Shown here: positions 10,467-13,400 of the stretch, piece after piece
Position numbering within the stretch: the first letter of the stretch is position 1
Layout: each line of letters begins with the position of its first letter
The notes under the pieces: model-generated
What the model saw: the letters and a program-made list of their open reading frames with translations, nothing else
Databases searched by the model: none
What the model was told of the DNA's origin: nothing
Made by a program: the position numbers and the translations under genes
Source: Haliotis rufescens
Lineage: Eukaryota
Assembly: GCF_023055435.1 (NCBI RefSeq)
Contig: NW_025963846.1
Coordinates: 5,704,001-5,768,000 of the forward strand
DNA: 64,000 nucleotides
Direction: 5' to 3'

Positions 10467-13400
10467 CTAATACTCCTCTCCCTCTTCCTCTCCCTCGCCC
10501 TCAACAGAGTCGACTCCAACCTCCTCGTAGTCCTTTTCCAGGGCGGCCAAGTCCTCACGGGCCTCGGAGAACTCTCCCTCCTCCATACCCTCACCCACGT
10601 ACCAGTGGACGAAGGCACGCTTGGCGTACATCAGATCGAACTTGTGGTCAAGACGAGCCCAGGCCTCGGCGATGGCGGTGGTGTTGCTCAACATACAGAC
10701 AGCTCTCTGGACCTTGGCCAAATCACCGCCGGGGACAACAGTGGGTGGCTGGTAGTTGATGCCAACCTTGAAGCCAGTGGGACACCAATCGACGAACTGG
10801 ATGGTTCTCTTGGTCTTGATGGTTGCGATGGCGGCGTTGACGTCCTTAGGGACGACATCACCACGGTACAACATGCAACAGGCCATGTACTTGCCGTGTC
10901 GGGGATCACATTTGACCATCTGGTTGGCAGGCTCGAAGCAAGCGTTAGTTATCTCGGCCACAGACAGTTGTTCGTGGTAGGCCTTCTCGGCGGAGATGAC
11001 AGGAGCGTAGGTAGCCAGAGGGAAGTGGATACGTGGGTAGGGCACCAGGTTGGTCTGGAACTCTGTCAGATCTACGTTCAGGGCACCATCGAAACGGAGA
11101 GAGGCAGTGATGGAACTGACAATCTGACCAATCAGACGGTTGAGGTTGGTGTAGGTAGGACGTTCGATATCGAGGTTACGTCTGCAGATGTCGTAGATGG
11201 CCTCGTTGTCGACCATGAAGGCGCAGTCGGAATGTTCCAGGGTGGTGTGGGTGGTCAGGATGGAGTTGTAGGGCTCCACCACGGCAGTGGAGATCTGGGG
11301 AGCGGGGTAGACAGCAAATTCTAGCTTGGACTTCTTGCCGTAGTCCACAGATAGTCTCTCCATCAAGAGAGAGGTGAAGCCGGAGCCAGTGCCGCCACCG
11401 AAGCTGTGGAAGATGAGGAAGCCCTGGAGTCCAGTGCACTGGTCAGCCAACTTCCTGGTGCGGTCAAGGACGAGGTCGACGATTTCCTTGCCGACGGTAT
11501 AGTGACCACGGGCGTAGTTGTTGGCGGCGTCCTCCTTGCCGGTGATGAGCTGCTCTGGGTGGAACAGTTGTCGGTAGGTTCCGGTACGGACCTCATCTGT
11601 AACACGGTATTTGTGCATGATTGAAAATGAATTTTTATTAAGCCGTTAAATATGATTGTGATGAAACCTCTATCATCTGAAAGTCGTTACAATAACATTA
11701 ACAGCAATATGTGAAAGTTTATCAACGGTATCATTGTTCACCACTTCTCCTGAATGAACATACTATGTGAAAAAACACTTCCCAGATTTAACAATGGTCA
11801 TATGATGTACCCACCGACAACAGTTGGTTCGAGGTCGACAAAGATGGCCCTGGGGACGTGTTTCCCAGCCCCGGTCTCGCTGAAGAAGGTGTTGAAGGAG
11901 TCGTCCCCACCCCCGATGGTCTGGTCTGAGGGCATCTGACCGTCGGGCTGGATGCCATGCTCAAGACAGTACAACTCCCAGCATGCATTGCCCATCTGGA
12001 CTCCGGCCTGGCCGACGTGGATGGAGATGCATTCCCTCTGAAGATTACAAAACAATATATGAAGATTTTATTAGATTATTTCACTTCATATAAAACTTAC
12101 AAATATCTGTTTACAAGTAAACTTTCATGACTATTTAGAAACAAGAATGTAAAAAAGTATCTCATTAACAATTATGCTGAATAGGTAAGTTAACAACTAC
12201 ATGTACGATCGGCCCAAGGACGTCTGACGTTTCTTCCTTGTGGTCCGGGAAATCGTCTTTATGTCAATGGCTTCCACACTTAATTTTGTTTATTCACTAA
12301 CAGTGAATATTCTCGCCTGTGGCTTCTATACCTATTGCAGCAGCCACGTCGAGTTTGTGCATCGAGAATACCACAATGGGTACTAACTGTTCGATTGGCT
12401 TTTTAGAGTGAGTGAGTGAGTTTGGTTTTACGCCGCTTTTAGCAATATTCCAAAAAATATCACGGCGGGGGACACCAGAAATGGGCTTCACACATTGTAC
12501 CCATGTCGGGATTCGAACCCGGGTCTTCGGCGTGACGAGCGAACGCTTTAACCACTAGGCTACCCGACCGCTCCTGGCATTTTAGAAGTTTGTGAGCAAA
12601 TAATAAAAACGTACAACTTAACAGATAACGACTTTTGGTTTGTTGCATGTAGCGACGTTTCGATGTAGATTCTATCACCGTTATCAACTTGACAACTTTT
12701 TAGGAATCTACATCGGAACGTCGCTGCATGCCACGAACCAGAAGTTGTTATCCATTAAGTTGTATGTTTTTATTATTCACAATAGGTACTCTCAAATCAT
12801 TGCCTAAAGTCCTGATCCCCGGCCGCGTCATACCAAAAGACGTTAAAAGATGGTACTTGTTGTTACCCTGTCTGGCGCTCGACATTAAGGGGCTAAAACA
12901 AGGACTGGTCGGCTCGGAGTCAGTATACTGTGTCTGAGTGGGGTATTCATGTTAAACTGCGGCATGGTATCTCAGTGAGCTAGCACTATAAATCGGCATC
13001 AGTCCGGACTAGTACAAGCAGCCACACACACACATACACGTGCATGCACGTCGCTATATAAGTGCAATAATCTTGGACGCGACGTTAAACCCAATTTCAC
13101 CTCACCTCACCTAAAGTCCTGACGAACGAATGATTACAAAGGGGGGCATGTTACATTAGGATGGAAGTTGTAATGTGTATAATATTCCCATATTCACAAA
13201 ATGAAGACATACATATGTTTTACTGTGTTTGGCACCAGTCAGCGTGGTACCTGATTGTCTTCATGATACATGATACATGATACATGATACATACTACACT
13301 CAGCCTGACAATAGACTGTTTACCAACTAACTAGGCTGCTGAGGCACACATATTTCACAGTAAGACCCGAATGTAATTTTCTTCAGTTGCACATACAAAA

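What the first reader, a model, noticed from the sequence alone, without database searches (positions are those of the whole stretch)
11921..11923. Natural K40Q (acetyl-mimic, non-acetylatable) alpha-tubulin in copy 2
Seen: copy 2 reads [10 protein letters not shown] (CAG) where the other four read [10 protein letters not shown] (AAG), and this is its only private amino-acid change. Known: Lys40 is the luminal site acetylated by ATAT1/MEC-17 on stable and axonemal microtubules, and K-to-Q is the standard laboratory acetylation mimic. Natural isotypes lacking K40 exist but are usually divergent elsewhere. Inference: a genetically hard-wired tubulin-code state within an otherwise homogenised array. 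A single-base error or rare allele cannot be excluded.
Basis: partly seen in the sequence, partly recalled or inferred. Interest (0 to 1): 0.7.

Follow-up and report, generated by a model that had tools for sequence, protein, structure and literature searches.

The report
Private K40Q in redundant tubulin copy
One of 14 near-identical neighbouring alpha-tubulin genes in this animal's assembly encodes glutamine instead of the lysine 40 that cells acetylate, but the change did not show up in contigs from other sequencing runs and occurs naturally in other eukaryotes, so it is likely a rare, near-harmless variant (or an assembly error) rather than a built-in acetylation mimic.

Summary
Copy 2 is an intact 451-aa alpha-tubulin gene with CAG at codon 40, its only private amino-acid change and the only Q40 among 49 alpha-tubulin loci in the genome. 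It is one of four private amino-acid changes in a 14-copy cluster under strong purifying selection (pN/pS 0.009).

The "hard-wired" reading is weak. Copy 2's own introns occur in four runs of the species. At the site, three show only the K letter; the fourth leaves a 1% residue that a narrower lay could not tie to Q. Contigs drop rare variants, so absence is not proven. No expression evidence was obtained. ATAT1 is present.

Natural Q40 is known: Plasmodium, where Q40K had almost no phenotype (PMC12795560), an Exaiptasia gene model, and 12 metagenome loci with the same loop. The scan noted a similar case in a shark.

Best reading: a private, near-neutral allele (0.5). Rivals: assembly error (0.25), common but tolerated (0.15), selected isotype (0.1). 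One point favours the last: copy 2's promoter has lost two RFX-like half-sites and gained one.

The parts
11921..11923 (-). Codon 40 of copy 2, CAG (Gln); the changed base is at 11923
13496..13498 (-). Copy 2 exon 1 coding part (ATG only), followed by a GT donor
12038..13495 (-). Copy 2 intron 1 (1458 bases, the longest of the 13 measured)
11815..12037 (-). Copy 2 exon 2 (codons 2-75 plus one base), holding the K40 loop
11597..11814 (-). Copy 2 intron 2 (218 bases), copy-specific; present in runs X1, X2, X6 and X7
10467..11596 (-). Copy 2 exon 3 coding part to the stop; E55, H283, K394 and the C-terminal Tyr of the protein are intact
10416..10421 (-). AATAAA polyadenylation signal of copy 2
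13586..13592 (-). TATA box, conserved in the 13 promoters found
13610..13621 (-). Proximal X-box-like element; holds a perfect RFX half-site (RGYAAC) only in copy 2
   Evidence: consensus from PMC10530576
13630..13646 (-). Eroded distal element: the two back-to-back RFX half-sites of 11 of the 12 other promoters are both lost
2871..5194 (-). Copy 1 (K40; private V7 and I110; I122 shared with copy 5)
18101..20374 (-). Copy 3 (K40; majority protein)
24919..27192 (-). Copy 4 (K40; majority protein; part of a recent 6.8-kb tandem duplication)
31757..34238 (-). Copy 5 (K40; I122)

Best explanation
Copy 2 is an intact alpha-tubulin gene in a 14-copy cluster, and its K40Q is likely a real but private or low-frequency point mutation that would be close to neutral because the other 13 copies keep K40. 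Shown: the gene anatomy, the single Q40 among 49 loci, strong purifying selection on the cluster, and ATAT1 exons in the genome. From established knowledge: a Q40 subunit cannot be acetylated, is not seen by the anti-acetyl-K40 antibody, and lacks the charge that pairs with E55 in the published model, so it would behave roughly like an acetylated subunit. Inferred: if copies were expressed equally it would supply about 1 in 14 of the cluster's subunits. The shared promoter looks RFX-driven, which suggests ciliated cells, where axonemal K40 is acetylated anyway, so a mimic would be among the best-tolerated changes. The A-to-C change turns an imperfect 5-base repeat into a perfect one, which would fit slippage-templated mutation.
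For: The cluster shows 165 synonymous against 5 non-synonymous variants (4 private), pN/pS 0.009, so rare private amino-acid changes do occur here (V7, F49Y, I110). At 11923 all contig depth carries the K letter in X1 (2750.8 of 2750.8; 11 contigs), X2 (883.2 of 883.2; 5) and X7 (1191 of 1191; 7), although copy 2's introns are present in all three. In the 49-base lay 0 of 16 (X6), 0 of 3 (X11, organism B) and 0 of 40 (X15, organism C) records were 99+% alike, while low-depth side paths did survive (X15: 60-base records at depth 4-8 beside a summed depth of about 204,500; X6: 34-58-base records at depth 18-32). No paralog carries C at this base, so mis-polishing from a paralog cannot create it. 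ATAT1 exons are over the PF05301 cut-off with no stops inside, unlike rodent Plasmodium. Tolerance elsewhere: P. berghei Q40K and T. gondii K40Q had little or no effect (PMC12795560); endogenous C. elegans mec-12(K40Q) had mild defects with no second K40 isotype to buffer it (PMC11216746); Drosophila K40A and K40R are viable and fertile (PMC5769580).
Against: Contigs drop rare variants, and I had no positive control at another copy-2-private SNP: none was listed. In X6, 41.2 of 3940.3 depth at the site is not the K letter, close to that run's single-copy depth (45.6-51.5); one search did not explain it. No run has shown the Q allele at all, so 'real' rests on priors. The change is silent after homopolymer compression and is the only A>C among 93 singleton changes, which also fits a consensus error. 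Q is rare in listed homologues (2 of 429 loop segments), so the site is normally constrained. Copy 2's promoter has 9 private changes in 60 bases, which a purely passive copy does not predict. Only 7 of 24 listed runs were laid.
Confidence: 0.5

Rival explanations
1. The C is a consensus error of the assembly, and copy 2 really encodes K40.
For: No Q-bearing contig was identified in any of the 6 contig runs laid, including X1, which holds the largest share of the stretch and matches intron 2 without a difference. The K and Q versions are identical after homopolymer compression, the class of change that run-length errors in long reads give. It is the only A>C of 93 singletons.
Against: 20 of 93 singletons in the cluster are also compression-silent (14% expected over all possible changes), so the feature is not rare. 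All 14 genes are free of frameshifts and stops, which suggests an accurate consensus. No paralog could donate the C. The unexplained X6 residue may be the allele.
Confidence: 0.25
2. Q40 is common or fixed in copy 2 but merely tolerated, and contig simplification removed its path because 9-20 paralogs share the flanking words.
For: With K at codon 40, each 31-base word over the site is shared by 9-20 paralogs, so a Q path would be a shallow bubble beside a deep one. The X6 residue is near single-copy depth. Q40 loops recur across metagenome contigs, three from one sample.
Against: Shallow side paths were kept in X6 and X15, yet none matched the window's version; the path would have to be lost in four runs from four studies.
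Confidence: 0.15
3. Copy 2 is a selected specialist isotype: a remodelled promoter drives it in particular cells, where Q40 gives acetylation-like lattice behaviour without ATAT1.
For: The protein is otherwise identical to the majority. Copy 2 alone among 13 promoters has lost both distal RFX-like half-sites and gained a proximal one, with 9 private changes in 60 bases, which looks like binding-site turnover. P. falciparum alpha2, used in male-gamete axonemes, has Q40 although alphaTAT is present (PMC12795560).
Against: No sign of the allele in other individuals or in two related organisms; no expression data; copies 3 and 4 also differ from the promoter consensus at 9 of 60 bases; mutants at this site have weak phenotypes (PMC12795560, PMC11216746, PMC5769580); copy 2 shares variants piecemeal with many paralogs, so it is not an isolated lineage.
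Confidence: 0.1

Closest known systems
Plasmodium alpha-tubulins with natural Q40 (P. berghei alpha1 and alpha2; P. falciparum alpha2; PMC12795560)
   Same: Genetically encoded glutamine at position 40 of an alpha-tubulin; in P. falciparum it coexists with a K40 isotype and alphaTAT, as here.
   Different: There it is a species-level trait of essential genes, with a changed loop in P. berghei alpha1 (QAGRAN for KTIGGG) and loss of alphaTAT in rodent parasites. Here it is one base in one of 14 redundant copies, with a canonical loop, ATAT1 present and fixation not shown.
Engineered endogenous K40Q: C. elegans mec-12(K40Q) (PMC11216746) and T. gondii alpha1 K40Q (PMC12795560)
   Same: A single K40Q in an otherwise canonical alpha-tubulin; loses anti-acetyl-K40 staining.
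   Different: Those replace the only or main K40 isotype and still give mild effects (about 20% missing synaptic branch, reduced regrowth); here 45 K40 loci remain.
Natural Q40 tubulins found here: Exaiptasia diaphana gene model P0098; metagenome loci L059-L070
   Same: The loop reads MPSDQT(I/L)GGGDD, in the 12 metagenome loci the same 12 residues as copy 2.
   Different: Other lineages (the six long ones are 86-87% identical to copy 2); in one sample three different contigs all carry Q40, which suggests a lineage trait rather than a single-copy variant. Their organisms were not identified.

Membership tests
Alpha-tubulin | Tubulin GTPase and C-terminal domains; closest solved structures are alpha chains | tested here: met
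   PF00091 and PF03953 over cut-off; the top PDB matches are alpha chains
Alpha-tubulin | Intact 451-aa frame with MREC start, acidic tail and C-terminal Tyr; canonical splice sites | tested here: met
Natural Q40 alpha-tubulin isotype (Plasmodium type) | Gln encoded at position 40 | tested here: met
   In the assembly only
Natural Q40 alpha-tubulin isotype (Plasmodium type) | Fixed in the species or shared with relatives | tested here: inconclusive
   Not identified in 4 runs of the species or in 1 run each of organisms B and C, but contigs drop rare variants and X6 has an unexplained residue
Natural Q40 alpha-tubulin isotype (Plasmodium type) | Expressed as RNA and protein | tested here: inconclusive
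   The one raw RNA run laid (small RNA, X22) gave 0 reads on the stretch; X15 is another organism and only guessed to be RNA
Rodent-Plasmodium-type compensation | Loss of the alpha-tubulin acetyltransferase | tested here: not met
   Two ATAT1/MEC-17 exons over the PF05301 cut-off, no stops inside; the whole gene was not reconstructed
Functional acetylation mimic | Lattice or cell behaviour like acetyl-K40 | not testable with these tools
   Needs purified protein or allele replacement
RFX (X-box) ciliary target gene | RFX sites near the transcription start | tested here: inconclusive
   Perfect monomer half-sites in all 13 promoters found (two in 11 of 13; background 2.7% of 60-base windows hold two), but full X-boxes only with 1-2 mismatches (background 15.5% at 2 mismatches), and the promoters are related by descent

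The most novel reading that the evidence does not exclude
Copy 2 is a young specialist isotype caught early: RFX-site turnover in its promoter gives it its own expression domain, and K40Q supplies ATAT1-independent, acetylation-like subunits there. A segregating K40/Q40 pair in one wild animal gene would be a natural experiment on what K40 acetylation does in cilia.
Probability: 0.1. Interest if true: 0.55.

Novelty: new member of a known kind. Interest (0 to 1): 0.2.

Why it matters
Whether K40 acetylation matters by itself is still argued, and a natural animal K40Q in an otherwise canonical protein, if fixed and expressed in particular cells, would show selection acting on that state. As it stands the evidence points to a rare variant or an error in 1 of 49 loci, of a kind already described and tested in Plasmodium with a null result, so it adds little. 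The more durable observations are the large, highly conserved alpha-tubulin cluster with RFX-like promoters and the recurrence of the same Q40 loop in unrelated eukaryotes.

Tried and rejected
Raw-read allele count: the only raw reads offered were small-RNA runs; X22 gave 0 reads on the stretch, so no test. The X6 residue: the narrow lay found no record identical to the window; one low-depth record fits the difference pattern of K40 paralogs L022 or L042; the residue stays unexplained. Using copy 2's private synonymous site at 11963 as a positive control failed: one search lists no row there, apparently because only differences 31 or more bases from a contig end in some run are shown (my inference from the rows). 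Protein searches for Q40 relatives were crowded by fused or doubled gene models and collapse near-identical proteins at 90%, so they cannot count single-residue variants; one of 297 proteins (P0106) did not fit the loop pattern and was dropped. Pseudogene reading: rejected, since frame, splice sites, TATA and polyA signal are intact and private changes are 3 synonymous to 1 non-synonymous. Compensation for ATAT1 loss: rejected. A second Q40 copy or haplotig: none. Paper searches with no result: K40Q + tubulin + naturally + 'glutamine at position 40'; Patella/trochoblast/X-box terms; SDQTIG + tubulin; tandem alpha-tubulin expansion in molluscs gave only plant papers. These cover only the held open library. 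No structure was predicted: a model would not resolve one residue in this loop.

Full report
Observation. A six-frame scan finds five alpha-tubulin genes on the minus strand. Each has an ATG-only first coding exon, a 223-base second exon and a long third exon, and encodes 451 residues. Copy 2 runs from ATG 13498 through exon 2 (12037-11815) to exon 3 (11596-10467). Codon 40 (11923-11921) is CAG in copy 2 and AAG in the other four, and it is copy 2's only private amino-acid change. Pfam and PDB confirm an ordinary alpha-tubulin. The organism is an animal with a 1.33-Gb genome; I did not determine its lineage.

Context in the genome. A search with exon 2 gave 51 matches from 52 scored candidates; I took the 49 strong ones as alpha-tubulin and left out two weak ones at 38-43% identity. 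Position 40 is K in 45 of 49, and Q, R, G and V once each. The R, G and V loci are diverged paralogs (78-84% in exon 2), so copy 2 is the only near-canonical locus without K40. A pattern search finds the Q loop once. Fourteen copies lie on this contig within about 190 kb. They differ by 21-56 bases in 1356, and 10 of 14 encode one identical protein. There are 165 synonymous and 5 non-synonymous variants; four of the five are private: V7 and I110 in copy 1, Q40 in copy 2, Y49 in L056. pN/pS is 0.009. K40Q is thus one of a handful of private changes under strong purifying selection. A hit on codon 40 has a nominal p of 0.009, but the site was picked after the fact and the loop is among the most variable parts of exon 2.

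Is the allele real and common? Twenty-four runs were listed; I laid seven. Over 11560-12260, copy 2's unique introns are present at single-copy depth in four runs of organism A from four studies. At 11923 the K letter makes up all the depth in X1 (2750.8 of 2750.8), X2 (883.2 of 883.2) and X7 (1191 of 1191), and 3899.1 of 3940.3 in X6. The X6 residue of 41.2 is near that run's single-copy depth and counts against my reading. On a 49-base stretch centred on the site, where every laid record covers it, none was 99+% alike: 0 of 16 in X6, 0 of 3 in X11 (organism B), 0 of 40 in X15 (organism C); the small-RNA run X22 laid nothing. A Q allele on the window's background would have been 100% alike. 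Shallow side paths do survive in these contigs, so the blank has some weight. But the tool warns that contigs show presence and not absence, 9-20 paralogs share the competing words, and I had no positive control at a copy-2-private SNP. The allele is probably not fixed; whether it is real is open. For an error: the K and Q versions are identical after homopolymer compression, and it is the only A>C among 93 singletons. Against: 20 of 93 singletons are compression-silent, no paralog has the C, and all 14 frames are clean. The change also perfects a 5-base direct repeat, which fits slippage-templated mutation (inference).

Regulation. Thirteen of the 14 copies share a compact promoter; none was found within about 13 kb upstream of L050. 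Using the RFX monomer site GTTRCY from PMC10530576 (passages), 11 of 13 promoters carry two perfect half-sites back to back 49 and 42 bases before the TATA motif, L058 carries one, and copy 2 carries neither but has a new one at -20. Background is 2.7% for two sites in 60 bases; the promoters are related, so they are not independent. Full X-boxes match only with 1-2 mismatches. Copy 2 has 9 private changes in this 60-base block against 0-5 elsewhere, although the copy 3/4 pair shares 9 differences from consensus. I infer a cluster that serves ciliated cells, and a copy 2 whose expression may be lower or shifted. This fits relaxed constraint as well as specialisation, and it is untested.

Mechanism. 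ATAT1 exons are present without stops, so Q40 does not stand in for a lost enzyme. In the published model unacetylated K40 holds E55, and acetylation frees E55 to pair with H283 of the next protofilament (PMC10707541, passages). E55 and H283 are intact in copy 2, so an expressed Q40 subunit would sit near the acetylated state and be invisible to the anti-acetyl-K40 antibody, as reported for mec-12(K40Q) (PMC11216746, passages). With 13 K40 neighbours and 45 K40 loci in all, the expected effect is small. P. berghei Q40K did not alter development or infectivity, and T. gondii K40Q had minor effects (PMC12795560: abstract, Introduction and passages). Worm K40Q gave about 20% branch loss and reduced regrowth. 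Fly K40A and K40R are viable and fertile (PMC5769580, passages).

Comparison with what is known. Natural Q40 is described in both tubulins of rodent Plasmodium and in P. falciparum alpha2. Among 297 listed proteins (the best 120 each of 6171, 4237 and 2543 hits, from queries that carry Q), 414 of 429 loop segments have K and 2 have Q, both in one Exaiptasia model. A metagenome scan for the Q loop gave 12 loci, all reading [12 protein letters not shown], in about five sequence groups and three deep lineages; I did not count K loops there, so no frequency follows. In the sea urchin P. lividus all alpha-tubulins surveyed keep K40 (PMC6539552, passages). Other papers were seen only as search listings. 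A search for this peptide found no paper.

Verdict. A real letter in the assembly and a new member of a known kind. Most likely a private, near-neutral allele (0.5); otherwise an error (0.25), a common but tolerated allele (0.15) or a selected isotype (0.1). Interest 0.2.

Noticed in passing
G000, whole genome (L001-L049): At least 49 alpha-tubulin exon-2 loci, many in clusters on C68, C2 and C79; an unusually large family. L043 looks broken (several frames in exon 3).
   Followed up: partly
window 13586-13650 and the matching promoters of the other copies: A conserved promoter of about 60 bases with back-to-back RFX-like half-sites before the TATA box in 11 of 13 copies; suggests a ciliary tubulin cluster.
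   Followed up: partly
window 18025-26050 against 24844-32888: Recent tandem duplication with a period of about 6.8 kb at 98.4% identity; copy 4 shares its 5' flank with copy 3 and its 3' flank with copy 5, as unequal crossing-over would give.
   Followed up: partly
L050 / G000:C68:5538000-5551000: The cluster copy that shares codons 111-113 with copy 2 has no match to the shared promoter or first exon within about 13 kb upstream; it may have another first exon or be 5'-truncated.
   Followed up: partly
L046, L047, L048: Diverged alpha-tubulin paralogs with R, G (gapped loop) and V at position 40.
   Followed up: no
L059-L070 (metagenome contigs): Twelve loci with the canonical loop but Q40; three different contigs from one sample all carry it, suggesting an unidentified eukaryote whose tubulins are Q40. 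Whether it keeps ATAT1 is worth testing.
   Followed up: partly
P0098 (Exaiptasia diaphana model): A fused gene model with two N-terminal segments, both Q40, in an animal.
   Followed up: no
window 24184-24588 and 31003-31398 (-): Duplicated open frames that resemble a Tc1/mariner transposase remnant (resemblance recalled, not scanned).
   Followed up: no
window about 12420-12575: An insertion in copy 2's intron 1 with a tRNA-like end, probably a SINE (by eye; not tested).
   Followed up: no
window 15251-17272, 38722-40711, 43016-44085, 57976-62478: Long minisatellites with periods of 44, 56, 26 and 39 bases.
   Followed up: no
14-copy cluster, residue 122: 12 of 14 copies have T122 and copies 1 and 5 have I122; T122 was confined to this cluster among the 42 loci read, but is common in fish gene models.
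   Followed up: partly
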